A stretch of 35,349 bases of DNA from a virus, in the IMG/VR virus record IMGVR_UViG_3300045988_110070, positions 1 through 35,349 of that record; one strand, 5' to 3'. This document shows, piece by piece, positions 7,201-26,380 of the stretch. A program made the translations under genes and the position numbers. The notes beneath the pieces are model-generated. The model saw only the letters and a program-made list of their open reading frames with translations, was not told the origin of the DNA and did no database searches. How positions within the stretch are numbered: position 1 is the stretch's first letter; each line of letters opens with the position of its first letter.

Positions 7201-7472
7201 CGTATGTCGACAACACGTACGCGTCCAAGTGGGTGACCGCGTCGTTGCAGCTGTCCCCGTCGTACAACTGGAACCTGGCGGTTGGTGGCACTGCCGTGGC
7301 GGAGCCGGGGGCGACAGGGATAGCCGTGTCCTGCGCGGGGATGATGCAGCTGCGAACGTCGAGCAAGCTGGCCTGGAGGTTCGCGATCAAGTCTCCTGGC
7401 GCGGACGACGGCGCTTTGGGGAACTTGATCTTCAGGCGCTTCCGCCTGTCAGCCATGTACGTCACGAACTGA
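4236..7472 (+). CDS. Large minor tail protein / tail fibre (1078 aa) with an Ala-rich coiled-coil stalk and a C-terminal globular region
   Basis: RBS AGGAGGAG upstream of ATG 4236. About 250 aa of A/K/D/Q heptad-like repeats (AAKDAAAAARDATTARAKAEAAAAS...). Then IGDKAIGSAQIGDAAIGSAQIADASITDAKIGGLSVSKL repeats, which resemble those seen in actinophage minor tail proteins. Confidence 0.8.
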   Translation: MSDSSLYLALREGSQASQRRDATIRWVKGRVVDTSKTDPTLPVGWVRVGMPYDKPETYVAGETPGLYTWQGAMVTVRLHPDGTLLAITDGQDEPGDERTQVERLGPAGREIAEAMDNAVDAKKAAAEVKERADAAAKDAAAAARDATTARAKAEAAAASVGAVQDSVNGLDGRITAADKAAKDASSAADAAKATAQQAAETAKRAEDAIKNSGDNARAVALAEEAKSLAQAAQTLAGQANAKARDAADAAQTATQKAADADTAAKKADANASAVKAAADGAQATAKAAQADAQKAQADYSALKAKQDASAADILAAKQKADGAAAAAQGAAEKADKAAADALGARNAADQATAKMSSLDGKVTIGARAPLPDDGRGKVAGSLWWVQGADGKLGQAFTWNGTVWRLSQAGTNFIGDKAIGSAQIGDAAIGSAQIADASITDAKIGGLSVSKLLVTGGAKMPQAVIDVITSDSAFLGAVAAHSVSVDPENMMREPLFASSPSSVWTVSDVNAVTLAAAVSGAPGGLTTGVRFVNPAGAKVWAQATQKITFPAGKRWVFRMTYRYNSGNAGALVATAAAKEICRPVYKANDYGWRTEEWSWTPDAGAASTMFQLSATAGCRAEVAFVSLTEAVGATKLAPGSVTSDAVYASKELWAKLAAFASVTTDMLTAGKATITGSAVVGELKGNKIWGSQIIGASLSTFLESAEAVNKKNPRWNASDGDTAEYIDQWIDLSATWVDQYSTDSDGKCTIESAKPREVHGRFKSDLDFSYGACWEINFTLPDGNVFDPVLSFKAYHWDEVNRRDGNTELQFNLLRDGKFMARDRSIHGYQHIWLGQWPAERTGTREYFLRIFPLYSPTNMYIENMKLSYRRGFDTTAVNMSNGSLTLRRVDVGANRSNRLTMAVGGLYASQTDSLEYQKPLRTLVMPPHFIGTSDQVRHLSWKGDNWQWWPGKLNNPRTWLQIDAQDWWTDDQGIPSTYYNGLYWVAATAYVDNTYASKWVTASLQLSPSYNWNLAVGGTAVAEPGATGIAVSCAGMMQLRTSSKLAWRFAIKSPGADDGALGNLIFRRFRLSAMYVTN

Positions 7473-7485
7473 GTAGGATGAGACT

Positions 7486-8175
7486 ATGAGTACTACGCGT
7501 TGGGATGGGGCGAAGGTCCCCACCGCATCCGATCCGATCCTGTCCGCGTGGGGCGACTACGCCGACTCGGTTGGCACGTTCATCCGGTGCGCGTCGCAGG
7601 CGGAGGCGCAGGCCCGCCTGTCGCAGGCGCCGGCCGGTGTCGTGTCCGCCGCGCACCCGGCCATGTTCCTGATCGCCGGCGTCCTGTACTCGGCGGACGG
7701 GACCAGGTCGGGCAACCAGTACGTGCTGCAGCCGGTGGCCGGGTTCTGCGATGTGCTGGTCGACAAGACTGACGCGTCCAATGGGCGCGGCCGGCCGACG
7801 TCCGACCATACGACGCGCAGGTGGGCGGAGACCGGTTTCAACCTTCCGATCCGCTCGCTGTTGGAGTTCAGCCTGGACGTGTGCGTCAGTATCGTCCACT
7901 CCGATTTCGCGTCGGAGGCCGACAAGGACAAGGCGAACGGAAGCTACTACTTCGGGTTCATCCTGGACAATGCGGGCCTGTGGCAGACGGAGATTCAGTA
8001 CAACCGGACGTTCATGACCCACCACCTGTCGTGGAAGCAAGAGGTGGCCGCTGGCACGCACACGGCCGCGTACTCGACGTGTGGGTCGTACGGGACTGAC
8101 CCGTTCTGGCACTACGACGGCGGCGTGTACCCGGGTACCCGGTTCCGGGTTATCAGTCTCGGCGCCGCCCGCTGA
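7486..8175 (+). CDS. Hypothetical structural (minor tail module) protein
   Basis: 229-aa ORF with AGGATGAG RBS-like sequence 5 nt upstream. Position is inside the tail module; no motif recognised. Confidence 0.6.
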   Translation: MSTTRWDGAKVPTASDPILSAWGDYADSVGTFIRCASQAEAQARLSQAPAGVVSAAHPAMFLIAGVLYSADGTRSGNQYVLQPVAGFCDVLVDKTDASNGRGRPTSDHTTRRWAETGFNLPIRSLLEFSLDVCVSIVHSDFASEADKDKANGSYYFGFILDNAGLWQTEIQYNRTFMTHHLSWKQEVAAGTHTAAYSTCGSYGTDPFWHYDGGVYPGTRFRVISLGAAR

Positions 8176-18035: not shown

Positions 18036-18296
18036 TCAGCGGGGGGCCGGTGCCTGGTACTGGGCGGGGACCGTTCGTGCCGCAGCGTGGCGGAGAGTGG
18101 CCTTCCTGCGGTTGCTGGACCGGGTGGCTCGGATGGCGACCGGCGCGCCGACGATGAGGCCGAGGACGACGGTCGTCGTGACGCGGCCGGTGACCAGGGC
18201 GAAGGCGGAGGCCAGGGTCCAGACGATGCCGAGGGCGGCGACCCAGGTGATCAGGGCGGTGCCTGCGCGGCTGGGGAGCTGGGCGGTGGTGTTCAT
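18036..18296 (-). CDS. Membrane protein (two predicted TM segments); first gene of the leftward operon
   Basis: 86 aa with RBS GGGAGGAA. TM-like segments GTALITWVAALGIVWTLASAFALV and TTTVVLGLIVGAPVAI. Confidence 0.65.
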   Translation of the reverse strand: MNTTAQLPSRAGTALITWVAALGIVWTLASAFALVTGRVTTTVVLGLIVGAPVAIRATRSSNRRKATLRHAAARTVPAQYQAPAPR

Positions 18297-18340
18297 TCGG
18301 TTCCTCCCGGGTGGTGGGTGTTGATTGAGTTGACGGGACC

Positions 18341-18369
18341 AATCTACGGCGTGTCGACACGCCAGTCAA
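18341..18369 (-). promoter_or_regulatory. Leftward early promoter (sigma-70/SigA type)
   Basis: Minus strand reads TTGACT (18369..18364), a 17-nt spacer, then TAGATT (18346..18341). There are 44 nt from the -10 to ATG 18296, with GGGAGGAA in between. Confidence 0.7.
18348..18363. promoter_or_regulatory. Perfect 16-bp palindrome (candidate operator) filling the promoter spacer
   Basis: GGCGTGTCGACACGCC is its own reverse complement. It occupies 16 of the 17 spacer positions of the leftward promoter. Confidence 0.6.
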
Positions 18370-18413
18370 CCCACGTCACGGTGATATCGGTCACGGTCTA
18401 GGGAGGTGGGTGG

Positions 18414-18477
18414 GGGGTACCAAAGTGAGACGACAGGGGTATCAAAGTGAGACGACAGGGGGGTATCAAAGTGAGAC
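18414..18477 (+). repeat. Three tandem direct repeats (iterons or operator array)
   Basis: GGGGTACCAAAGTGAGACGACA (18414..18435), GGGGTATCAAAGTGAGACGACA (18436..18457) and GGGGTATCAAAGTGAGAC (18460..18477). Spacing is 22 and 24 bp. An AT-rich patch follows at 18479..18503. Confidence 0.85.
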
Positions 18478-18638
18478 CCAAACCTTATCCAAGAGAATAA
18501 ACACCCCCCTACCCCCCACTGCCGGCAGCCGGCCGGGACCACGACAGCCCGCCACCGGCGCCGCCGGCAGCGGACAGACGCGGCCCCGGCGGCAACCAAC
18601 CAGCCGACACCTGGTACGGTTGACCCGTTGGTTGAACA

Positions 18639-18717
18639 GCTGGCCTCATGGTTTTTGTGTTGTGTTCCCCAGAGGCCAGCCGGGGCCCGGGTCGAGCCAC
18701 GAAGCTCCCCGGGCCCC
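18639..18717 (+). other. Two consecutive stable stem-loops upstream of the rightward early operon
   Basis: Hairpin A: GCTGGCCTC (18639..18647) with GAGGCCAGC (18672..18680) and a T/G-rich 24-nt loop. Hairpin B: GGGGCCCGGG (18682..18691) with CCCGGGCCCC (18708..18717) and a 16-nt loop. Confidence 0.5.
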
Positions 18718-18766
18718 AACCAACAGGCCCACAGAACACAAAAACCAACACAACACGGAGAGAGGC

Positions 18767-19570
18767 ATGGAGTACTACAACACCCAGGTCATCGGCGCCA
18801 TAAACATCCGCCCCTACTGGAAACGCCACGACCTCACCGGCGGAGACATCGCCACCCTCACCGCACTCTGCACCTGGTGGAACTGCGAACACATCTACCC
18901 GTCATGGGCCGCCATCGAACAACGCTCGGGACAGTCGCGCCCCACAGTCGCCCGCGCACTCAAGCACCTCGCCGGACTCGGCATCATCGAAACCCGTCGC
19001 ACCGCCGGAAACACCAACGAATACGCCATCCACCTCGACGCTCTCCTCAACCACGACGGCCTCGTAGCCGCCGGCACCACCAGCCACGACCGACTCACTG
19101 AACAACCCCGCACCTACAAGCCGCTCACCCCCGTCGCCGACCGAGTCACCGAAAACGACATCGCCCGCGCACGAGCCAGACACGACAAGGCCGCAGCCAA
19201 GAAACAAGCACAGAAAGCACAGGAAGCCCAGGAACGGGCCGAATTCAACAAAACCTACCCGGGCACCAAAGCCACCATCCGGGACTGGCAGAAAGCCAGA
19301 CAGCACGCCACAGCCCGGGAAATCACCGACGGCGCACGCGCCTACGCGGACCAATGCCGCCGCCGTGAAACACCCGCCCGGTACATCCGGACCGCACGCC
19401 GCTGGCTCGAAGACCACGACTGGGAGAACTACCAGCCCCGGGAACCGGCCGACACGGACGACCTCCTCGGCAAACCCCGCATCAACGACGCGGACCTCGT
19501 CAACGCGGAAGCCGACCCGGAACTCATAGCCAGCATCACAGCGATGTGGGACAACGCGACCAACAACTGA
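18767..19570 (+). CDS. Winged-helix DNA-binding protein, probable replication initiator / replisome organizer (helicase loader)
   Basis: Start at ATG 18767 with RBS GGAGAGAGG. The wHTH-like segment is AAIEQRSGQSRPTVARALKHLAGLGIIETRR. The C-terminal ARYIRTARRWLEDHDWENY resembles the WL..W motif of replisome-organizer/DnaD-type proteins. Lies directly upstream of dnaB. Confidence 0.55.
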   Translation: MEYYNTQVIGAINIRPYWKRHDLTGGDIATLTALCTWWNCEHIYPSWAAIEQRSGQSRPTVARALKHLAGLGIIETRRTAGNTNEYAIHLDALLNHDGLVAAGTTSHDRLTEQPRTYKPLTPVADRVTENDIARARARHDKAAAKKQAQKAQEAQERAEFNKTYPGTKATIRDWQKARQHATAREITDGARAYADQCRRRETPARYIRTARRWLEDHDWENYQPREPADTDDLLGKPRINDADLVNAEADPELIASITAMWDNATNN

Positions 19571-19594
19571 ACCCACCGGGAAAGGAGCACACGA

Positions 19595-20848
19595 ATGGAA
19601 ACCACCACCATCGAACAGTGCCTCATCGGCTCCGCCCTCGCAGGCGGCGAAGCGCAAACCGACACCGCCTGGTCCACCACACCGGACATGATCGCCAACA
19701 CCAGATACGCCGTCCTCTGGGGAATCATCCGCGACCACTGGGCGATGGGCAGGACCCCCACACCCGCTTCCGTCCTCGCCGAAGTCCGCAAGCCGGCCAC
19801 CGGAGAGGACATCCTCGACTGCGTCCACGCGTCCGTGAACCCCGCCGACGCGGACCACTACGCCCTGCTCGTCCAGGAAGCCTCCGCCAAACGGGACGTC
19901 CACGACGTGCTCACCCGCGCCGGGCAGCTCCTCCGAGGAGACGCGACCGCCGCCGAAGTGGCGTCCTGGACGCAGTCCCACATCGGCAGCACCGCCCCCG
20001 ACAGCGGCACCGTCTCCATGCCGTCCCTCGTCGACCAGTGGTACACGGCCAGGAAAGCGACCGGCGTCCGCACCCCATGGGCCAGCGTCAATGACATCGT
20101 CGGCCTGCACCGCGACGGCGGACTCCACGTCATCGGCGCCCGCCCCGCAGTCGGCAAGACTCTCTACGGCCTGTACCTCGCAGCCTGTGCCGCACACAAC
20201 GGCCGGCACGTCCTCTACGTATCCATGGAAATGCCAGCCCGCGAGCTGTTCCCCAGGCTCCTGTCCCAGGCCACGGGCGCCGCACTCAAGTACACAACCC
20301 GAGCGGAGCCAACACCCCACGACCTCACTGACACCCTCAACCGGGCCGCCGCCCAGATCGCGGCCTTGCCAATCCACGTCAGCGACAAGGCCGGCATGTC
20401 CGTCGAACAGGTCGCCGCGCTCGCACGCACCCTCCACCACAAACGGAAGCTCGGAGCTGTCGTCATCGACCACATGCAGCTCCTTGCCCCGTCCCGTGGC
20501 ATGCCCGGCTCCTCACTCAGGGAGATGGTCACCTACCAGTCGAGGGCGCTGAAAGAACTGGCCCTCGAGCTCGACGTTCCCGTGTTCGCCCTGTCGCAGC
20601 TGTCCCGCGCCTCCGAGATGAGGGACGACCTCGCCCCGAAGCTCGCCGACCTCCGCGAGTCGGGCAGCATCGAGCAGGACGCGGACACCGTCGCCCTCCT
20701 GTCCTTGCCCGTCCGCAACGGAGTGCCCGACAAGTCGCGGCTCGTCGTGTCCGTGGCCAAGAACCGGCACGGCGCGACAGGCGACACCGAGCTCATCCGC
20801 CGGCCCGCCATGGCCGTCCTCGCAGAACCCGCCCCGCAAGGCCACTGA
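19595..20848 (+). CDS. dnaB: DnaB-family replicative helicase
   Basis: RBS AAAGGAG. Walker A GARPAVGKT, Walker B VVIDHMQLL, then ALSQLSR and DLRESGSIEQDAD. 417 aa. Confidence 0.85.
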   Translation: METTTIEQCLIGSALAGGEAQTDTAWSTTPDMIANTRYAVLWGIIRDHWAMGRTPTPASVLAEVRKPATGEDILDCVHASVNPADADHYALLVQEASAKRDVHDVLTRAGQLLRGDATAAEVASWTQSHIGSTAPDSGTVSMPSLVDQWYTARKATGVRTPWASVNDIVGLHRDGGLHVIGARPAVGKTLYGLYLAACAAHNGRHVLYVSMEMPARELFPRLLSQATGAALKYTTRAEPTPHDLTDTLNRAAAQIAALPIHVSDKAGMSVEQVAALARTLHHKRKLGAVVIDHMQLLAPSRGMPGSSLREMVTYQSRALKELALELDVPVFALSQLSRASEMRDDLAPKLADLRESGSIEQDADTVALLSLPVRNGVPDKSRLVVSVAKNRHGATGDTELIRRPAMAVLAEPAPQGH

Positions 20849-20868
20849 CAGCCACGCAGACGGCCGAA

Positions 20869-20900
20869 CCCCCCTCACCCGGTACTCGGGTGCAGGGGGG
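20869..20900 (+). terminator. Stem-loop after dnaB
   Basis: CCCCCCTCACCCG pairs with CGGGTGCAGGGGGG (one bulged C) around a 5-nt loop GTACT. Starts 21 nt after the dnaB stop. Confidence 0.5.
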
Positions 20901-20997
20901 TGTCCGTTAGGCCGTCAGCGTCGCTCTCACGGCCTCCGCGCACCCGGGCGGGACGGATACCATAAGAACACTGACACCAACCGATAAGGGAGACCGC

Positions 20998-21210
20998 ATG
21001 ACCCGCACCCTCTACGCCACCGCACTCACCGCCGGCATCCTCTCCGGCATCCACGCCGCGCTCCTCTGGTGCGCCGGCCTCACCGCCGGGGAGCTCGACA
21101 TCTCCACCGCCCTCCTCTGGACAGTCATCTCCGCCGTCTGCCTCGCCTCGCTGCGCCCCATCCGCTGGGCCCGCAAGCACGGCAACCATCCGGGCTTCCA
21201 CCGCCGCTGA
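20998..21210 (+). CDS. Small membrane protein (two predicted TM segments)
   Basis: 70 aa with RBS AAGGGAG. TM-like segments LYATALTAGILSGIHAALLWCAGL and ALLWTVISAVCLASL. Confidence 0.6.
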   Translation: MTRTLYATALTAGILSGIHAALLWCAGLTAGELDISTALLWTVISAVCLASLRPIRWARKHGNHPGFHRR

Positions 21211-21217
21211 CAACCCG

Positions 21218-21251
21218 GGATCCCCGACGTCGACACAGGCGCCGGGGATCC
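21218..21251 (+). terminator. Stem-loop after the small membrane gene
   Basis: 9-bp arms GGATCCCCG and CGGGGATCC with a 16-nt loop. Confidence 0.3.
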
Positions 21252-21365
21252 GTCCATCTCCATGCCCCCACCGCACCGCACAACACGGACCGGGACCTTG
21301 TACCCGGGGAAGGAGCGCACCCCACCCGCGCGCACGCACCCCGTTGGGGCTATAACACCGAACCA

Positions 21366-21395
21366 GAGATATACAGGTAGTAGATAGTAGGCACC
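21366..21395 (-). promoter_or_regulatory. AT-rich patch with TAG/CTA trinucleotide repeats (DnaA-trio-like) plus a GC spacer
   Basis: GAGATATACAGGTAGTAGATAGTAG followed by GCACC. The bottom strand reads GGTGC-CTACTATCTACTACC immediately 3' of two DnaA boxes. Confidence 0.5.
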
Positions 21396-21412
21396 TGTGG
21401 ATATGTGGATAA
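21396..21412 (-). promoter_or_regulatory. Two abutting DnaA boxes (minus orientation)
   Basis: The plus strand TGTGGATATGTGGATAA corresponds to ATATCCACA (21396..21404) and a perfect TTATCCACA (21404..21412) on the minus strand. Confidence 0.75.
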
Positions 21413-21505
21413 CCCCCGACACCGTTGCAATCCCAACCATCCCCCATCCACAACCACCTGTGGGCAACTCGGGGGGCGCAGTGGATCACTGGTATGCACA
21501 ACCAC

Positions 21506-21560
21506 TTATCCACAGGTTATCCACAACCGATCCACAGGGATACCCACAGGGATATCCACA
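21506..21560 (+). promoter_or_regulatory. Phased array of five DnaA boxes (plus orientation)
   Basis: TTATCCACA (21506), TTATCCACA (21517), CGATCCACA (21528), ATACCCACA (21540) and ATATCCACA (21552). Start-to-start spacing is 11, 11, 12 and 12 bp. Confidence 0.75.
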
Positions 21561-21626
21561 TGACCCAGCACACAGGGTAGGACTGAAGACCCGCCCCGGG
21601 AAGACTCGAACACCGGGAATCCACAA

Positions 21627-21659
21627 CCCGGACACCCACCACCCAGACACCCCCCACCC
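21627..21659 (-). other. G-quadruplex-type motif on the minus strand (C-run / i-motif on plus)
   Basis: Plus-strand C-runs at 21627-29, 21635-37, 21642-44, 21650-55 and 21657-59, with loops of 5, 4, 5 and 1 nt. This fits the (G3+ N1-7)x4 pattern on the minus strand. Confidence 0.45.
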
Positions 21660-21705
21660 GGACAGGAACCACTCACCCCCCCCGTGCACCCCCTAGGATG
21701 AACCC

Positions 21706-22149
21706 ATGGCATGGACCACCAGCACACGCAAACAACGACTCCCGAACAACTGGAACAAAATAAGACAACAAGTCCTACAAAGAAACAACAACAAATGCGC
21801 CGGACTCCCACGCCCCACGGGCACCCCCACCCAGATGGCCACGGGCACCACCACACCCACCGGGAGGTGGCACGCCGCCGGATGCAACCGGCACGCCACA
21901 GACGTCGACCACATCACACCCGGAGACAACCATTCAATAGACAACCTGCAGCCCCTATCCCGCGCCTGCCACCACGCCAAGACCACCGCCGAGACCCTCG
22001 CACGCACAGCCGCACGACACGCAATGACACAACACAAACACGCGCCGCACCCGAACACGCAACAAACACAAAACAAAAACAAAACAAAACGAAACGAAGA
22101 AAAACCAAACGAAACACGAAGCCGAAACCTGCGCGAACGCTTCACATGA
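21706..22149 (+). CDS. HNH endonuclease with an insertion and a low-complexity tail
   Basis: WNKIRQQVLQRNNNKC ... GCNRHATDVDHITPGDNHSIDNLQPLSRACHHAKT matches the phage HNH layout. About 25 aa of P/T/G-rich sequence lies between the Cys pairs. The C-terminal K/N/T/Q tail is encoded by A/C-only DNA. Confidence 0.75.
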   Translation: MAWTTSTRKQRLPNNWNKIRQQVLQRNNNKCAGLPRPTGTPTQMATGTTTPTGRWHAAGCNRHATDVDHITPGDNHSIDNLQPLSRACHHAKTTAETLARTAARHAMTQHKHAPHPNTQQTQNKNKTKRNEEKPNETRSRNLRERFT

Positions 22150-22355
22150 AAACAAAAAAAAATCCGCGACCGAAAACAAAAAAACACCCTGGCACCGCCT
22201 CCCCCCCCGCCCCCGGAAAGGACCGCCGGAGGTAGCAATCACCCAGTGCGATGCCCGATTTGCCGGGATTTCGAGTGACCGCGACCACAAGGTCGGGTCC
22301 GTTACCCTGGAAGTAACCGCCCCGACCCGACGGGGCACAACAGACAGGAGGGCAG

Positions 22356-23753
22356 ATGTCAGCATCACCCGCAACCGCCGCAGCCCAGATGGAGTACTGG
22401 GCCACCTGCGGCCCCGGGAAACCCCAAGGAGGTGACTACAGCGTCGGCTATTCACAGCCCGACCGGTGGATGGCGTACGAACGGTCCACCGACCTCGGCT
22501 GGCTCACCGCGGACGCCAACATGGACTGCTCCGCCGGTGTCGCCGCCGCCTGGAACTACGCGTTCCACGCCGACGGAGAGCCCTGGAACTCCAACGTCAT
22601 GTTCCCCAAGGACACGTACACCGGCAATATCCGCGGCTACGCCGTCTCCAGAGGCTTCGAAGACGTCCACTGGGACGACAACAGCCTCTACCCGGACGGC
22701 GGACTCCAGGCCGGCGACCTGATCCTCTCCGAGGCGGCCTCGGGCGGCGCCGGCCACGTCGCCATGGTCACCAGGAACGGCCTGTCCGAAGCGTGGATCG
22801 CGGAAGACGGCTCCATCGACGGGTACATCGGCGACCAGACCGGCTCCGAGTGCCGGTGCGTGTCCTACGAGGGCCACCTGTACACGCGGACGGCCCGGTG
22901 GACGCACTGCCTCCGCTACCTCGGCGGCACCGCGGCGCCTGTTCCACCGGCGCAGGAGCAGTCCCGCGCCGGCCACGACGGGTACGAGCTGTCGTACGTG
23001 CAGCAGGCCGTCCTCCGCGCCGCGGACAACGTCGGCTGCCCCTGGTGGGCGGCGCTCGCGGCCCTGTGGATGGAGACCGGCGAGTACGGGGCGAACATCT
23101 TCGGCCACGACGCGGGCGGCGCCTACTGCGGCGGCGGTGAAGTCACCGAGGAGAAGTTCCGGGACTTCTACGCGCAGATCAGTGCCGGGGCCACGTCCAA
23201 CGGCGTCGGGCCGCTGCAGGTCACGTACCCCGGCTACTTCTTCAACGACCCCGACCGGGCCTGGTGGGACCCTGAGAAGTCCGCCGAGGTCGGTTGCGGC
23301 ATCATCAGGGACCTCATCAACGCGGAAGGCGACTCGTATGAAGACCTGAGGCGTGTCGGGTCCCGCTACAATTCGGGCAGCGCTTACGGCGCCTACGAGG
23401 CGTACGGTGAGCCGTTCAGTGACCGGTGCAGGTCGTGGTACAACTACGGGCGCCCCAACGGCGCAGGACAGGAGGCATGGGAAATGGCTGAAGGTGTTGA
23501 CCTTCTCAGGGAGATCAGGGACCTGTTCAGGTCCGGTCAGGCCGGCGACCACTTCGCCGGCGACATGAACTGGTACGCGAAGGCGACCTACGAGGAGGCC
23601 CGGGCGGTCCACGCCTCGGTCGACAAGGTCCTCGACGCGCTCACCCCCGGCCAGGAGGGCGTCAAGTCCGCGGGTGCGATCTACGGCGCTGTCAACGACA
23701 TTCGCGTCGCCGTGAAGCCCGCCGACGGCGAGCGGCCCGACGCTGCGAAGTGA
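22356..23753 (+). CDS. Endolysin with an N-terminal Cys-His peptidase (NlpC/P60 or CHAP-like) and a central lytic transglycosylase/lysozyme-like domain
   Basis: RBS AGGAGGG. Candidate nucleophile in NMDCSAGVAAAWNY and candidate His in GGAGHVAMV. The central WMETGEYGAN ... SNGVGPLQVTYPGYF is SLT-like. Followed by holin-like genes. Confidence 0.7.
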   Translation: MSASPATAAAQMEYWATCGPGKPQGGDYSVGYSQPDRWMAYERSTDLGWLTADANMDCSAGVAAAWNYAFHADGEPWNSNVMFPKDTYTGNIRGYAVSRGFEDVHWDDNSLYPDGGLQAGDLILSEAASGGAGHVAMVTRNGLSEAWIAEDGSIDGYIGDQTGSECRCVSYEGHLYTRTARWTHCLRYLGGTAAPVPPAQEQSRAGHDGYELSYVQQAVLRAADNVGCPWWAALAALWMETGEYGANIFGHDAGGAYCGGGEVTEEKFRDFYAQISAGATSNGVGPLQVTYPGYFFNDPDRAWWDPEKSAEVGCGIIRDLINAEGDSYEDLRRVGSRYNSGSAYGAYEAYGEPFSDRCRSWYNYGRPNGAGQEAWEMAEGVDLLREIRDLFRSGQAGDHFAGDMNWYAKATYEEARAVHASVDKVLDALTPGQEGVKSAGAIYGAVNDIRVAVKPADGERPDAAK

Positions 23754-24294: not shown

Positions 24295-24642
24295 GTGACA
24301 CGTCTGACATCTGCTAGGCGCCTGCGCAAGGAAGTGCTGGAGGAGTGGGATCTGTCGCCGGTTGAGGCGCGGATCCTGGACGACATGTGCCATGAAGCCG
24401 AGCTGATCTCCCGGATGGCGAAGGAGCTGGACGGCGGGGACCTGCTGACGGTCGGGTCGACCGGTCAAATGCGCCCCAATCCCCTGCTCGCGGAGATCCG
24501 GCAGCACCGGGCGGTGATGGCGTCCCTCGCGAAAGCTTTGCGGCTGCAGGATGACACCGACGAGGCCCGTCTGGCGCGGTCGGAGCACGCTGCGACCGCG
24601 GCGGCCGGCCGCTGGGGGCTGACGCATGGCACGTCGGCGTAA
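24295..24642 (+). CDS. terS: Terminase small subunit (P27-like)
   Basis: Start at GTG 24295 with AGGAG 8 nt upstream. 115 aa. GSTGQMRPNPLLAEIRQHRAVMASLAKALRL resembles the P27-family core. Overlaps terL. Confidence 0.65.
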   Translation: MTRLTSARRLRKEVLEEWDLSPVEARILDDMCHEAELISRMAKELDGGDLLTVGSTGQMRPNPLLAEIRQHRAVMASLAKALRLQDDTDEARLARSEHAATAAAGRWGLTHGTSA

Positions 24643-26380
24643 CAGCACGCCGGCCGCGGCCAGCGAATGGGATGAGGCCGAGTGGCCGGCGATCAAAGCC
24701 TGGTACAAGGAGCGTCTGTCCGCTCCGGCCGCCTTGCCCGACTGCGCGTGGCCGCCGGTCGCGCACGGCCCGGTCTGGACCATCGAGAACGGCCGGTGGC
24801 TGCTGCCCGACAGCACCATCGGGTGGGACGTGCTCGCGTGGGCGTCTTCCTCGCTGGTCGGACCGGGCGGCGGCGCATGGACATTCACGCCGGAACAGGC
24901 CAGGTTCATCCTCTGGTACTACGCGATAGACGATGACGGCATGTTCCTGGCGCCCACAGTCGTCCTGCAGCGATGCAAAGGCTGGGGGAAAGACCCGCTG
25001 GCCGGTGTGATCGCCCTGAACGCCCTCCTCGGCCCCTCCCTCCCGCAGTCCGCACCCCACGGCGTCCGAGGTCGACGCGAACAGACGCCATGGATCCGCC
25101 TGCTCGCCGTGTCGCAGCAGCAGACCGAGAACACGATGGGGGCGATCCGGGCGATCGCCCCCGCGCAGGCGCAGTCCGAGCTCGGCATACGCGTCATCTC
25201 CACGTACGTGCGTCCCACGGACGGCTCCCCGGGCTTCATCACCGCGATCACGTCGAACCCCGATGCTGCCGAAGGATCTCGCGCCACCCTGACGATCTGC
25301 AACGAGACCCAGAACTGGACGGCCTCCAATGCCGGCATCGCGATGATGGGGGTCGTGCGCGGCGACGCCGCGAAATCACCTCCGGACCGGCAGGCGCGCG
25401 TGCTGCACATCTGCAACGCCGCCCGCGTCGGCGTTGAATCCGTGGGCCTCGCGACCAGGGAGGCGTGGGAGCAGTCCCAGGCCGGGAAGATCCGCTCCTA
25501 CGGGCTTATGTACGACACTCTGGAAGCTCCTCCGCAGGCGCCGCTGACCGCGGAGGACGCCCCCGAAGTCGTGAAAGGCGTTCGAGGTGACGCCACCTGG
25601 CTGTCACCGGACCGGATCGTTCAGGACGTCCTCGACCCTGAAACCCCGCCGTCCGAGTCCAGGCGGAAGTGGTACAACCAGGTCACCGCCGCCGAGGACG
25701 CGTGGGTCACCAGGGAAGAGTGGGACGCATGCTGCGCCAAGGACCTGCCCGCACTCGACCCCGACGACGAGCTTGTTTTGTTTTTCGATGGCGGTAAGTC
25801 GGACGACGCGACCGCTTTCGTGGGCTGCCGGATCTCCGACGGCGCCGTGTTCCCCCTCGGGGTGTGGCAACGGCCGCCCGATGCCCGCGCCCACGGTTGG
25901 GTCGCTCCCCGCGAAGAGATCGACCAACGCGTCCGCGACATCCTCGACCACAACAACGTCGTCGCCCTATGGTGCGACCCGTCCCACGCCAAGGACGACG
26001 AAACAATGGTGGCTTTCTGGGACGGCATCATCGACGGCTGGCACCGCGACTACCGGCGGAAACTCCGCATGCCGGCCTCCAGGCAGCACGCCACCAGATG
26101 GGACATGTCCGACCCGTCCCACACGGCCCGGTTCGTCCGCGGCGTCAACCGCGTCTACGCGGACATCGAAGCCGGCGGCCTCCTCCACGACGGCGACGCC
26201 CGACTCCGCGCCCACGTGCTCCACGCCCGCCGCGTCCCCTCCAAATGGGGGCCGTCCATCGCGAAGAACCACCGCGAGTCCAGGAAGAAAATCGACCTGG
26301 CCGTCGCCATGGTCGGTGCCCGTATAATGCGTGAAGAGTACAGAAACAGTCGCCGCAGAGGACGCGGAAAGGTATGGTGA
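24626..26380 (+). CDS. terL: Terminase large subunit
   Basis: 584 aa, positioned between terS and the portal. Has an N-terminal ATPase-like region (RCKGWGKDPLAG) and a C-terminal nuclease-size region. Confidence 0.8.
   Translation: MARRRNSTPAAASEWDEAEWPAIKAWYKERLSAPAALPDCAWPPVAHGPVWTIENGRWLLPDSTIGWDVLAWASSSLVGPGGGAWTFTPEQARFILWYYAIDDDGMFLAPTVVLQRCKGWGKDPLAGVIALNALLGPSLPQSAPHGVRGRREQTPWIRLLAVSQQQTENTMGAIRAIAPAQAQSELGIRVISTYVRPTDGSPGFITAITSNPDAAEGSRATLTICNETQNWTASNAGIAMMGVVRGDAAKSPPDRQARVLHICNAARVGVESVGLATREAWEQSQAGKIRSYGLMYDTLEAPPQAPLTAEDAPEVVKGVRGDATWLSPDRIVQDVLDPETPPSESRRKWYNQVTAAEDAWVTREEWDACCAKDLPALDPDDELVLFFDGGKSDDATAFVGCRISDGAVFPLGVWQRPPDARAHGWVAPREEIDQRVRDILDHNNVVALWCDPSHAKDDETMVAFWDGIIDGWHRDYRRKLRMPASRQHATRWDMSDPSHTARFVRGVNRVYADIEAGGLLHDGDARLRAHVLHARRVPSKWGPSIAKNHRESRKKIDLAVAMVGARIMREEYRNSRRRGRGKVW

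What the first reader, a model, noticed from the sequence alone, without database searches (positions are those of the whole stretch)
21366..21625. Bacterial oriC-like module in a phage: phased DnaA-box array plus DnaA-trio-like repeat in a 495-bp noncoding gap
Seen in the sequence. The gap 21211..21705 has no credible ORF. It contains:
- three perfect TTATCCACA boxes: 21506-21514 and 21517-21525 on the plus strand, 21404-21412 on the minus strand
- two ATATCCACA boxes: 21552-21560 plus, 21396-21404 minus
- 7/9 relatives on the plus strand: CGATCCACA 21528-36, ATACCCACA 21540-48, CCATCCACA 21444-52, GAATCCACA 21617-25
- 7/9 relatives on the minus strand: TTGCCCACA 21459-67, TGATCCACT 21480-88
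Five plus-oriented boxes start at 21506, 21517, 21528, 21540 and 21552, about one helical turn apart. The oppositely oriented left pair abuts GCACC and then TAGTAGATAGTAG, inside one of the most AT-rich stretches of the genome. On the bottom strand this reads 5'-TTATCCACA-TATCCACA-GGTGC-CTACTATCTACTACC-3'.

Established knowledge. TTATCCACA is the consensus DnaA box. As I recall it, the core unwinding module of bacterial oriC is tandem DnaA boxes, a short GC spacer, DnaA-trios (3'-GAT-5' repeats) and an AT-rich DUE, in that order. Arrays of same-orientation boxes support DnaA filament formation.

Inference. The phage encodes DnaB, a putative loader, SSB and RecT, but no polymerase or primase that I could recognise. 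It may recruit host DnaA to fire a chromosome-type origin. Alternatively the cluster acts as a datA-like DnaA sink that disturbs host initiation, or as a DnaA-dependent switch for the downstream HNH and late genes. I am not aware of this layout being described for actinophages, but I could not search.
Basis: partly seen in the sequence, partly recalled or inferred. Interest (0 to 1): 0.85.

Follow-up and report, generated by a model that had tools for sequence, protein, structure and literature searches.

The report
Phage mini-oriC of DnaA boxes
A family of uncultured high-GC phages from the human mouth carries, right after its own replication genes, a conserved non-coding array of binding sites for the host replication initiator DnaA, laid out like a miniature bacterial chromosome origin, and this is most likely the phage's replication origin.

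Summary
The gap 21211-21705 is non-coding and holds 12 of the window's 40 DnaA-box matches (≤2 mismatches). Composition-matched shuffles give about 1.

About 20 close relatives keep every box position. A sibling phage group (Rep ~36%, DnaB ~47% identical) has the same array directly after its DnaB. Its geometry is identical: an overlapping minus-strand pair, +55 bp, +47 bp, then ~11-bp phased plus-strand boxes. The spacers between boxes have diverged to random (boxes 0.77 versus spacers 0.31 identity).

The TAG repeat next to the box pair is also conserved, with a 5-bp G/C spacer and the orientation of the bacterial unwinding module (BUS). It narrowly fails the published trio rule: 2+2 GAT trios with a 1-nt phase break, not three in phase.

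The array travels with Rep-DnaB, not with the HNH/terminase module. The box motif does not co-vary with Rep.

Best reading (~0.55): a DnaA-dependent, oriC-like phage origin feeding the phage DnaB. Rivals are a DnaA sink, a DnaA-controlled transcription element, or a genome-end function.

DnaA-box arrays also occur in many unrelated phages, including terminal repeats of cultured T7-like phages, so boxes alone do not prove an origin. The host is unidentified and nothing was tested biochemically.

The parts
18767..19570 (+). Rep: O-like replication initiation protein. It has an N-terminal winged-HTH and a conserved C-terminal domain.
   Evidence: phrog_270 at 3.4e-17, with phrog_391/678 'O-like' hits. 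Pfam HTH_36 is weak. Gene called at 18767-19570. The family is sparse, with 60 representatives at E<1e-3.
19595..20848 (+). Phage DnaB-family replicative helicase
   Evidence: Pfam DnaB_C at 5.7e-56. phrog_19 at 2e-72. TIGR03600 phage_DnaB.
20998..21210 (+). Small hydrophobic protein gp70. It is dispensable for the module, being absent in L085, L090 and L095.
   Evidence: GC3 is 0.94. tblastn shows presence or absence across relatives.
21218..21251 (+). Stable hairpin (GGATCCCCG...CGGGGATCC), probably the terminator of the Rep-DnaB-gp70 operon
   Evidence: Inverted repeat I13. It appears in both the MFE and centroid folds. An analogous hairpin follows DnaB in the sibling locus L361 at 7238-7268.
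21339..21349 (.). Short GC palindrome CCCCGTTGGGG
   Evidence: Invariant in the family. The sibling group has a different palindrome (GGGGCTTCGCCCC) at the same place.
21350..21390 (.). Locally A/T-rich stretch, the candidate unwinding region. It includes AGATAT(CT) at 21367-21374.
   Evidence: 37.5% GC, the 6th lowest 40-bp window in the genome. AGATATCT cross-group identity is 0.70.
21378..21390 (+). TAGTAGATAGTAG: a DnaA-trio-like element. Read 3'->5' away from the boxes it is GAT GAT a GAT GAT.
   Evidence: Invariant in 18/18 family members. The sibling has TAGTGGGTAGTAG, and the two box-proximal GAT trios are invariant. Cross-group identity is 0.83. Only 2 trios are in phase.
21391..21395 (.). 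5-bp G/C spacer (GCACC) between the trios and box L1. It lies 13 bp from the better box L2.
   Evidence: It is always G/C-rich but variable in sequence (GCACC, GGGCC, GTGCC, GGGGC) and constant in length. 13 bp is the commonest BUS spacer in PMC8287927.
21396..21412 (-). Co-oriented box pair L1 (ATATCCACA, 21396-21404) and L2 (TTATCCACA, 21404-21412). They overlap by 1 nt and point toward the trios.
   Evidence: ≤1 mismatch in 17/18 relatives each. Cross-group identity is 0.87.
21444..21452 (+). Weak box x1 (CCATCCACA), head-to-head with L3
   Evidence: The CCACA core is kept in both groups, with cross-group identity 0.64.
21459..21467 (-). Box L3. It is TTGCCCACA here but TTATCCACA or TTGTCCACA in most relatives. 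It always lies 55 bp from L2.
   Evidence: Cross-group identity is 0.89, and the 55-bp distance is identical in the sibling group.
21480..21488 (-). Weak box L4 (TGATCCACT)
   Evidence: It is CAATCCACA in the sibling group.
21489..21505 (.). Central spacer, including GTATGCACA. It is invariant within each group but unrelated between groups. It is a speculative group-specific site, possibly for Rep.
   Evidence: Within-family identity is 0.97-1.0. Cross-group identity is 0.19.
21506..21560 (+). Phased co-oriented array R1-R5 (starts 21506, 21517, 21528, 21540, 21552), with spacers of 2, 2, 3 and 3 bp
   Evidence: R1 always lies 47 bp from L3. Every weak site is a near-perfect box in some relative, for example L377. 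Indels come in whole ~11-12-bp units. DnaA prefers pairs with 2-3 bp spacing (PMC11317965).
21617..21625 (+). Outlying weak box R6 (GAATCCACA)
   Evidence: A perfect TTATCCACA sits at a similar position in L377.

Best explanation
The interval about 21339-21625 is the cis-acting replication origin of this phage's Rep-DnaB module. It is built almost entirely from binding sites for the host initiator DnaA, so it works like a miniature oriC.

Proposed sequence of events (all steps inferred):
1. Host DnaA occupies the high-affinity boxes L2, L3, R1, R2 and R5.
2. ATP-DnaA fills the weaker, helically phased sites R3 and R4 cooperatively.
3. The co-oriented pair L2/L1 directs a DnaA oligomer across the 5-bp G/C spacer onto the GAT trios of the plus strand. 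This opens the adjacent A/T-rich stretch at about 21350-21390.
4. The distal boxes help by looping, at fixed distances of 55 and 47 bp.
5. The phage Rep (winged-HTH plus C-terminal domain) acts as co-initiator or adaptor. It delivers the phage DnaB helicase to the opened DNA.
6. Host primase and polymerase do the rest, since the phage encodes neither.

What is shown: the sites exist, are far beyond chance, are non-coding, are conserved as boxes with fixed geometry, and are coupled to Rep-DnaB.

What is inferred: DnaA binding, unwinding, the role of Rep, and origin activity.
For: - Box cluster far beyond chance, even against composition-matched shuffles.
- Non-coding. No Rfam family matches.
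- Family-wide conservation. The CCACA core is 98.5% identical and variation is confined to box positions 1-4. Weak sites in the window are perfect boxes in relatives.
- Phylogenetic footprint against a sibling group (Rep 35-37%, DnaB 47% identical). Identity is 0.77 in boxes versus 0.31 in spacers. The 8/55/47/11n-bp geometry and the 5-bp spacer are identical.
- In the sibling group the array again directly follows DnaB, but is followed by unrelated small genes, about 9.5 kb from HNH. Phages sharing only the HNH/ELLD late module, and 54 loci with more distant DnaB (≤41%), have no cluster.
- The motif stays at the universal DnaA consensus while the Rep DNA-binding domain diverges to 36% identity. 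This points to a conserved host binder.
- 2-3-bp spacers match the spacing DnaA prefers (PMC11317965).
- The order of pair, G/C spacer (13 bp from the better box), GAT trios and A/T-rich element matches the BUS. Distal boxes acting at a distance are known from B. subtilis incC (PMC8287927; PMC6669920).
- No iteron array lies in or near the rep gene. The only other non-coding repeats are operator-like.
- No primase or polymerase gene was detected.
- In unrelated viral contigs, DnaA-box clusters also lie next to Rep-initiator genes (phrog_270/428/678). In L219 an O-like Rep is followed immediately by 6 boxes.
Against: - The trio element has only two in-phase NAN trios before a conserved 1-nt break. 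The published minimum is three.
- L1 and L2 overlap by 1 nt (8-bp offset), which is not the usual BUS pair spacing.
- The A/T-rich stretch is short, and in the sibling group it is only about 10 bp.
- The phage has its own O-like initiator, and its binding site is unknown.
- Unrelated phages that encode a full replisome (T7-like) also carry DnaA-box arrays. Arrays can therefore serve non-origin roles.
- Cumulative GC skew has its extremes near 18-19 kb and 30-31 kb, not at the array. Skew in small phages is dominated by transcription, so this is weak evidence.
- The host and its DnaA-box preference are unknown.
- There are no experimental data.
Confidence: 0.55

Rival explanations
1. DnaA sink for host takeover. 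The array titrates host DnaA, as datA or chromosomal box clusters do. As phage copies accumulate, host initiation is blocked or DnaA-regulated genes are re-programmed. The array is not itself an origin.
For: - The array has many high- and medium-affinity boxes at the spacing DnaA prefers.
- DnaA titration by chromosomal boxes is an established control principle (PMC12371093, listed).
- DnaA-box arrays occur in more than 120 unrelated viral contigs and in T7-like phages that do not need DnaA for replication.
Against: - A sink does not need the strictly conserved bipartite geometry or the conserved non-box TAG/G-C-spacer/AGATATCT element.
- A sink does not need constant linkage to the 3' end of dnaB in two groups whose genomes are otherwise rearranged.
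Confidence: 0.15
2. DnaA-controlled transcription element. DnaA bound to the array acts as a roadblock or regulator between the terminated Rep-DnaB operon and the downstream genes (HNH and late genes here). This would couple downstream expression to host DnaA-ATP status.
For: - The array lies between a terminator-like hairpin and the next rightward genes in both groups.
- A plausible -35/-10 (TTGCGT-18-TACGAT) lies just right of the array in the sibling locus. This was read by eye.
- DnaA is a known transcription factor (PMC11317965; PMC13438810, listed).
Against: - The downstream genes differ completely between the two groups.
- The late module exists without any array in related phages.
- No promoter-like site was found in the window's gap by the consensus scan.
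- This reading does not explain the trio-like element and the oriented box pair.
Confidence: 0.12
3. The repeats are bound by a phage protein (Rep or another) rather than by DnaA. The match to the DnaA box would then be mimicry or coincidence, making this a classical iteron origin.
For: - An O-like Rep with a winged-HTH is encoded 1.8 kb upstream, and its target is unknown.
- ~11-bp phased direct repeats resemble iterons.
Against: - The motif equals the universal DnaA consensus 9/9 several times.
- It is unchanged between groups whose Rep N-terminal domains are only ~36% identical.
- The same motif arrays occur in unrelated phages of Proteobacteria that lack this Rep.
- The substitution spectrum has variable positions 1-4 and a fixed CCACA, which is the shape of the DnaA-box logo.
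Confidence: 0.08
4. Genome-end function. The array lies next to the physical terminus (cos). It would act in packaging, or in entry or protection of the first-injected DNA end, by binding membrane-associated DnaA, as proposed for the T5 injection-stop region.
For: - 9 of 19 relatives' contigs end within about 500 bp of the array.
- An HNH gene, then TerS and TerL, follow downstream.
- T5 and T7-like phages have DnaA boxes in or near their terminal repeats.
Against: - Contig ends scatter over about 50 bp of a C-rich tract with G-quadruplex potential, and over a second A-rich tract after HNH.
- Some near-full-length contigs simply lack the biallelic HNH segment. This points to assembly breaks, not termini.
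- In the sibling group the array is about 9.5 kb from HNH and the late genes.
- Related phages with the same late module lack the array.
Confidence: 0.05

Closest known systems
Basal unwinding system (BUS) of bacterial oriC: DnaA-box pair, G/C spacer, DnaA-trios, A/T-rich DNA (B. subtilis incC; PMC6669920, PMC8287927)
   Same: - A co-oriented box pair, with the better box distal.
- A G/C spacer, 13 bp from the better box.
- Two perfect 3'-GAT-5' trios next to it, followed by A/T-rich DNA.
- Additional distal boxes at fixed distances.
   Different: - It lies on a phage, not next to dnaA.
- Only two trios are in phase, because of a conserved 1-nt break.
- The two boxes overlap by 1 nt.
- The A/T-rich part is very short.
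- It is coupled to a phage Rep and a phage DnaB.
E. coli oriC DnaA-oligomerisation regions: oppositely oriented half-arrays of boxes with 2-bp spacers (recalled knowledge; spacing preference in PMC11317965)
   Same: - Two oppositely oriented sets of boxes span about 230 bp.
- The right set is co-oriented with 2-3-bp spacers.
- It mixes strong and weak sites.
   Different: - No 13-mer DUE or IHF/Fis sites are recognisable.
- The host is a high-GC actinobacterium, whose own oriC is expected to look different.
Iteron origins with auxiliary DnaA boxes: P1 oriR, pSC101, F, RK2 (recalled knowledge)
   Same: - A mobile-element origin next to its rep gene.
- It depends on host DnaA through DnaA boxes near an A/T-rich region.
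   Different: - No Rep iterons were found in or beside the array.
- DnaA boxes are the dominant element (8-12 of them), not an accessory 1-5.
Lambda-type ori within the O gene, with the O-P helicase delivery system (recalled knowledge)
   Same: An O-like initiator gene lies directly upstream of the helicase-related gene. The phage relies on the host primase and polymerase.
   Different: - There are no iterons inside rep.
- The phage encodes DnaB itself.
- The candidate origin lies downstream of dnaB and is made of DnaA boxes.
T5 injection-stop (iss) region with 8 organised DnaA boxes (bioRxiv 10.1101/866236)
   Same: A conserved, organised DnaA-box cluster in a large non-coding phage region, compared by its authors to oriC.
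   Different: - In T5 it lies in the terminal repeat, away from the replication genes and the known origins.
- It was proposed to arrest DNA entry.
- Its boxes are pairs inside inverted repeats.
Co-oriented DnaA-box arrays in T7-like phages (Shigella phage A7 terminal repeat; Klebsiella phage FBKp16), seen here
   Same: Runs of 8-9 co-oriented TTATCCACA-type boxes at 11-12 bp or multiples, resembling R1-R5.
   Different: - They have no opposed box pair and no trio-like element.
- They lie at genome ends or in early regions of phages with their own replisome.
- Their function is unknown, and no paper in the searchable library linked DnaA boxes to T7-like terminal repeats.
datA and chromosomal DnaA-box clusters (PMC4585315, PMC12371093)
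   Same: A cluster of high-affinity boxes able to bind many DnaA molecules.
   Different: datA-type loci are not linked to helicase or initiator genes and have no trio-like unwinding element.

Membership tests
DnaA-box cluster (DnaA-binding cis element) | Multiple matches to TTATCCACA, well beyond chance | tested here: met
   3 perfect, 5 with ≤1 mismatch and 12 with ≤2 mismatches in 495 bp. Gap-matched shuffles give means of 0.003, 0.095 and 1.19.
DnaA-box cluster (DnaA-binding cis element) | Sites conserved as boxes in relatives (footprint) | tested here: met
   The CCACA core is 98.5% identical in the family. Cross-group identity is 0.77 in boxes versus 0.31 in spacers.
DnaA-box cluster (DnaA-binding cis element) | Co-oriented sites spaced 2-3 bp apart, the spacing DnaA binds cooperatively | tested here: met
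   R1-R5 have spacers of 2, 2, 3 and 3 bp. The rule comes from PMC11317965.
DnaA-box cluster (DnaA-binding cis element) | Bound by the host's DnaA | not testable with these tools
   The host is unidentified and no binding data exist.
Bacterial BUS (box / spacer / DnaA-trios) | A DnaA box with ≤2 mismatches, preferably a co-oriented tandem with the better box upstream | tested here: met
   L2 is 9/9 and distal. L1 is 8/9 and proximal. They are co-oriented. They overlap by 1 nt, whereas the published rule allows 0-3 bp between boxes.
Bacterial BUS (box / spacer / DnaA-trios) | Spacer of ≤16 bp between box and first trio, G/C-rich, most often ~13 bp from the better box | tested here: met
   5 bp (GCACC) from L1 and 13 bp from L2. 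It is G/C-rich and length-invariant in both groups.
Bacterial BUS (box / spacer / DnaA-trios) | At least three consecutive in-phase NAN trios, with 3'-GAT-5' preferred nearest the box | tested here: not met
   The best frame gives 2 consecutive trios (GAT GAT), then a 1-nt shift, then GAT GAT. The break is conserved, and the sibling has GAT GAT g GGT GAT.
Bacterial BUS (box / spacer / DnaA-trios) | A/T-rich unwinding region beyond the trios | tested here: inconclusive
   37.5% GC over 40 bp in the window, ranked 6th lowest. Only about 10 bp (TAGATATCTCT) is A/T-rich in the sibling group.
Bacterial BUS (box / spacer / DnaA-trios) | DnaA- and ATP-dependent strand separation | not testable with these tools
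   This needs a BHQ-SSA, P1 or KMnO4 assay with host DnaA.
Iteron-type phage or plasmid origin with auxiliary DnaA boxes | Array of Rep-specific direct repeats (iterons) in the origin | tested here: not met
   There is no such array in or next to the box region or inside rep. The 22-bp repeats at 18412-18477 are palindromic and hypervariable while Rep is conserved.
Iteron-type phage or plasmid origin with auxiliary DnaA boxes | rep gene adjacent to the origin | tested here: met
   The order Rep-DnaB-(gp70)-array is found in both groups.
Terminal or packaging element (cos/pac, T5 iss-like) | Located at the physical genome end or obligatorily linked to the terminase module | tested here: not met
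   The array is absent from relatives that share the HNH/ELLD/terminase module. It is about 9.5 kb from HNH in the sibling group. Contig ends are scattered and look like assembly breaks. True termini were not mapped.

The most novel reading that the evidence does not exclude
The array is a portable, self-contained mini-oriC. It would be a phage origin written entirely in the host initiator's own code: phased DnaA boxes plus a degenerate BUS whose trio phase is deliberately broken. Host DnaA opens it, and a phage Rep adaptor then hands the opened DNA to a phage DnaB.

This would be one instance of a much wider and essentially undescribed use of organised DnaA-box arrays by unrelated phages: T5-like, T7-like terminal repeats, and many uncultured lineages.
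Probability: 0.35. Interest if true: 0.8.

Novelty: new variant of a known kind. Interest (0 to 1): 0.62.

Why it matters
DnaA-dependent replication of mobile elements is known from iteron plasmids and P1. There, DnaA boxes are accessories to Rep iterons. Here the boxes are the whole recognisable origin. They come with a BUS-like unwinding module and a geometry conserved across deep divergence.

If this is confirmed, it would have three consequences:
- **A portable unwinding module.** It would show that the bacterial chromosomal unwinding module can be carried and used by a virus.
- **A natural minimal substrate.** It would offer a roughly 230-bp natural substrate for studying DnaA oligomerisation and unwinding in Actinobacteria. 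It includes a conserved variant with a broken trio phase.
- **A helicase-loading question.** It would raise the testable question of how a phage helicase is loaded at a DnaA-opened site.

The side observation matters too. Organised DnaA-box arrays are common in unrelated phages, including cultured T7-like phages where they cannot be conventional origins. This suggests that host DnaA is a broadly exploited phage target.

Tried and rejected
- **Coding ORF in the gap.** Rejected on GC3, lack of codon periodicity, frame-breaking indels and absence of any family hit.
- **Structured RNA.** No Rfam match at E≤1 in 18200-22400. The fold of 21205-21420 is no better than shuffles, apart from the terminator hairpin.
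- **The 22-bp repeats at 18412-18477 as the Rep-iteron origin.** In relatives they are 15-bp palindromes that differ between phages whose Rep is 82-90% identical. They precede an invariant promoter-like block. They are more likely operators.
- **A cos site beside the array.** Contig ends cluster there, but they are scattered. They coincide with C-rich and A-rich low-complexity DNA and a biallelic HNH segment. Two ends carry sequence resembling Nextera adapters. This was not accepted as evidence of termini.
- **Link to the late/packaging module.** Rejected.
- **Host identification.** This failed:
  - The genome-collection scan returned only distant DnaB genes.
  - No phage record is close: TerL ≤47% and DnaB ≤36% identity.
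  - Cluster members are all metagenomic 'Caudoviricetes sp.'.
  - The xhp1 paper is not held.
- **Similar DNA in plasmids.** None found.
- **Searching viral contigs with a divergent Rep alignment.** The alignment was too divergent for the tool, so single proteins were used instead.
- **Solved-structure homologs of Rep by sequence.** None were informative. Structure prediction was not attempted because only a shallow alignment was admissible.
Full report
**Source and context.** The window is a 35,349-bp metagenomic scaffold (ENA ZHAN15-1_SAMEA2737966 scaffold_303) with 66.6% GC. It is a circularly permuted genome of an uncultured tailed phage.

Around the finding the gene order on the plus strand is as follows:

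| Feature | Coordinates | Evidence |
|---|---|---|
| O-like replication initiator 'Rep' | 18767-19570 | phrog_270, weak HTH_36 |
| DnaB-family helicase | 19595-20848 | |
| 70-aa hydrophobic protein | 20998-21210 | |
| Gap | 21211-21705 | |
| HNH endonuclease | 21706-22149 | |
| Endolysin-like-domain (ELLD) protein | 22356-23753 | |
| TerS | 24295-24642 | |
| TerL | 24626-26380 | |
| Portal | follows TerL | |

The leftward early genes include exonuclease, SSB, RusA, dUTPase/dCTP deaminase and RecT. No primase, polymerase, helicase loader or integrase was recognised. The host is unknown. An oral high-GC actinobacterium is only inferred.

**Observation.** Twelve of the window's 40 sites with ≤2 mismatches lie in 21396-21625. 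So do 5 of its 6 sites with ≤1 mismatch.

The gap is C/A-rich, so I shuffled the gap itself while preserving dinucleotides. In 2000 shuffles, perfect boxes averaged 0.003 (observed 3). Sites with ≤1 mismatch averaged 0.095 with a maximum of 2 (observed 5). Sites with ≤2 mismatches averaged 1.19 with a maximum of 7 (observed 12).

Gene callers place a 97-99-aa ORF at 21397-21696. It is an artefact of T-poor DNA. Its GC3 is 0.63 against 0.79-0.94 in neighbouring genes. Substitutions show no codon periodicity, relatives carry 1-nt indels, and there is no family hit. No Rfam family matches. A stable hairpin at 21218-21251, just after the gp70 stop, looks like the operon terminator.

**Anatomy.** From left to right:
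- a short GC palindrome (21339-21349)
- an A/T-rich stretch containing AGATAT (21350-21390; 37.5% GC, the 6th lowest 40-bp window)
- TAGTAGATAGTAG (21378-21390)
- a 5-bp G/C spacer (21391-21395)
- two minus-strand boxes overlapping by 1 nt (L1 21396, L2 21404)
- a weak plus-strand box (x1, 21444), head-to-head with minus-strand box L3 (21459)
- a weak minus-strand box (L4, 21480)
- a 17-bp central spacer
- five plus-strand boxes R1-R5 (21506-21560) with spacers of 2, 2, 3 and 3 bp
- an outlying weak box (R6, 21617)

**Close relatives.** About 20 IMG/VR contigs with DnaB 88-92% identical carry the array at the same place. Substitutions stay within box variants: TTATCCACA, TTGTCCACA, TTACCCACA and ATATCCACA. 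The CCACA core is 98.5% identical and variation sits at positions 1-4.

Sites that are weak in the window are perfect in relatives. L3 is TTATCCACA in 10 of 18. R3, R4 and an R6-like site are perfect in L377.

Most indels come in roughly whole box units. L099 has a 12-nt loss of R3, and L087 has insertions of 2, 11 and 3 nt and a 4-nt deletion. The module persists whether or not gp70 is present. It also persists with either of two HNH alleles (~88% versus ~46% identity). This family is shallow, however. Non-box columns are 90.6% identical.

**Sibling group: the decisive comparison.** The nearest distinct Rep homolog (40% identity) led to a second phage group, L360-L362 and L365-L369. Its Rep is 35-37% identical and its DnaB 47% identical to the window's.

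All five distinct contigs of this group have a DnaA-box array directly after DnaB with the same geometry. There is a pair at 8-bp offset, then +55 bp to the next minus box, then +47 bp to the first plus box. Further plus boxes follow at multiples of 11 bp. The same 5-bp G/C spacer leads to TAGTGGGTAGTAG.

Cross-group identity by element:

| Element | Cross-group identity |
|---|---|
| All boxes | 0.77 |
| Inter-box spacers | 0.31 (about random) |
| L1/L2 | 0.87 |
| L3 | 0.89 |
| R1 | 0.87 |
| TAG element | 0.83 |
| AGATATCT | 0.70 |

In this group the array is followed by unrelated small rightward genes. It lies about 9.5 kb from HNH and the late genes.

Conversely, the region upstream of HNH in this same group has no box cluster. 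Neither do 43-kb phages that share the ELLD late gene. None of 54 loci with more distant DnaB (≤41% identical) has a cluster.

The array is therefore a cis element of this Rep-DnaB module, not of the packaging or late module. The box motif is unchanged while the Rep DNA-binding domain has diverged to ~36% identity. The binder is therefore most likely a conserved host protein, namely DnaA.

**Alternative origin candidate.** The only other non-coding repeat arrays in the genome are these:
- three ~22-bp repeats at 18412-18477, upstream of rep
- a C-rich 15-bp x3 repeat at 21621-21664
- A-rich repeats after HNH

In relatives the 18.4-kb repeats are 15-bp palindromes, for example GGCTCA-N3-TGAGCC and GTGCCA-N3-TGGCAC. 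They differ between phages whose Rep is 82-90% identical, and they precede an invariant promoter-like block. They look like operators of a variable regulator rather than Rep iterons. No iterons occur inside rep.

**BUS membership.** The published search rule (PMC8287927) requires a box with ≤2 mismatches, a spacer of ≤16 bp (most commonly 13 bp from the better box), and at least three in-phase NAN trios with 3'-GAT-5' favoured nearest the box.

Here the pair is co-oriented and the better box is distal. The spacer is 5 bp from L1 and 13 bp from L2, and it is G/C-rich. The two proximal trios are perfect GAT. A conserved extra nucleotide then breaks the phase (GAT GAT a GAT GAT), so no frame has three.

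The element therefore works like a BUS on most counts but fails one defining criterion. I do not file it as a canonical BUS.

The box-to-trio orientation agrees with my recollection of the B. subtilis and E. coli R1-DUE arrangement. The papers I could read give the consensus and require co-orientation of the pair but do not print the sequences. Distal boxes acting at 132-462 bp with helical phasing are documented for B. subtilis incC. The 2-3-bp spacing preference of DnaA is documented for E. coli.

**Wider survey.** Of the 80 loci fetched, 22 have at least 5 boxes per 300 bp, across 30-65% GC. None shares Rep or DnaB with this phage.

ORFs within 2 kb of these clusters are enriched for TerL and TerS, and also for replication-initiator families (phrog_270 x3, phrog_428 x3, phrog_678 x2). 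ORFs at least 3 kb away are not. In L219 an O-like Rep gene is followed immediately by six boxes.

A sensitive DNA search then showed that cultured T7-like phages carry such arrays. Shigella phage A7 has nine co-oriented boxes at nt 22-147. The match occurs at two places in the record, which suggests the terminal repeat. It lies about 0.7 kb from the DNA-packaging gene. Klebsiella phage FBKp16 has eight boxes. This explains the class of clusters next to terminase genes or contig ends.

T5-like phages have organised DnaA boxes in their injection-stop region (bioRxiv 10.1101/866236). In the searchable library, no listed paper linked DnaA boxes to T7-like terminal repeats or to actinophages.

Organised DnaA-box arrays are therefore widespread in phages and need not be origins. 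What distinguishes the present element is its opposed bipartite layout, the conserved trio-like element with its spacer, and its fixed coupling to Rep-DnaB.

**Mechanism and rivals.** The best-supported reading (~0.55) is a DnaA-dependent, oriC-like origin that supplies opened DNA to the phage Rep/DnaB pair.

| Rival | Confidence | Main evidence against |
|---|---|---|
| DnaA sink | ~0.15 | Conserved geometry, non-box elements and linkage to dnaB |
| DnaA-controlled transcription element | ~0.12 | Downstream genes differ between the groups |
| Binding by a phage protein rather than DnaA | ~0.08 | The motif does not co-vary with Rep |
| Genome-end function | ~0.05 | Sibling-group context |

On the genome-end rival: contig ends near the array scatter over a C-rich tract with G-quadruplex potential and over an A-rich tract. 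Some contigs lack only the biallelic HNH segment. This looks like assembly breakage.

**Limits.**
- The host is unidentified.
- Only two phage groups provide the footprint.
- The orientation argument is partly recalled from memory.
- The role of Rep is unknown.
- No binding, unwinding or replication data exist.

Noticed in passing
window 18412-18510 (alignment A2 of L082-L099): The divergent early control region has 2-3 copies of a ~15-bp palindrome spaced 22-24 bp apart. The palindromes differ completely between phages that are otherwise ~90% identical. They precede an invariant block, CCAAACCTTATCCAAGAGAATAAACACCCCCCTACCCCCC. This looks like hypervariable immunity-type operators in front of the rightward rep promoter. 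No repressor or integrase was identified.
   Followed up: partly
MK685668.1 nt 22-147 (L363); MW394389.1 (L364, locus 2511-2670): Cultured T7-like phages carry arrays of 8-9 co-oriented, mostly perfect DnaA boxes. In Shigella phage A7 the array is at the start of the record and is matched at two places, suggesting the terminal repeat. It lies about 0.7 kb from the DNA packaging gene. Klebsiella phage FBKp16 has a similar array. These phages encode their own replisome, so the function is unexplained. No listed paper linked DnaA boxes to T7-like terminal repeats.
   Followed up: partly
L161-L240 (IMG/VR contigs): More than 120 unrelated viral contigs contain two perfect DnaA boxes 2-3 bp apart. 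Of the 80 fetched, 22 have at least 5 boxes per 300 bp. The clusters sit next to TerS/TerL or contig ends, next to Rep-initiator genes (for example L219, where an O-like Rep is followed by six boxes), or between head genes.
   Followed up: partly
window 21621-21690: A C-rich tract with three 15-bp direct repeats (CCACNACCCRGACAC). The minus strand has a canonical G-quadruplex motif (GGGTGGGGGGTGTCTGGGTGGTGGG, about 21635-21659), one of only 5 such motifs in the genome. Many relatives' contigs end here.
   Followed up: partly
window 21706-22250; L281-L302: The HNH gene is compositionally atypical (GC3 0.64) and exists as two alleles in the family (~88% versus ~46% identity). It is followed by an extremely A-rich low-complexity tract (22061-22197, 25-30% GC). 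Contigs often break on both sides of it, so it behaves like a mobile or mosaic cassette.
   Followed up: partly
L096 about 8085-8149; L085 about 7775-7799: Two IMG/VR contigs continue past the C-rich tract into sequence that resembles error-laden Nextera adapter (CTGTCTCTTATACACATCT...). L085's contig is 70.3 kb, about twice the genome length. These are probably assembly artefacts.
   Followed up: no
window 19000-23000: Strong strand compositional asymmetry: GC skew from -0.13 to -0.30 and AT skew from +0.16 to +0.49. The plus strand is C/A-rich across rep, dnaB, the gap and HNH. The whole genome shows a two-domain skew pattern that switches near 18-19 kb and 30-31 kb.
   Followed up: no
window 20998-21210: The 70-aa hydrophobic protein between DnaB and the array is missing in L085, L090 and L095. 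In those relatives the array lies about 255-330 bp after DnaB.
   Followed up: partly
window 21489-21505; L361 7490-7512: The spacer between the minus and plus box sets is nearly invariant within each phage group but unrelated between groups (cross-group identity 0.19). It is a candidate group-specific protein site, possibly for Rep.
   Followed up: no
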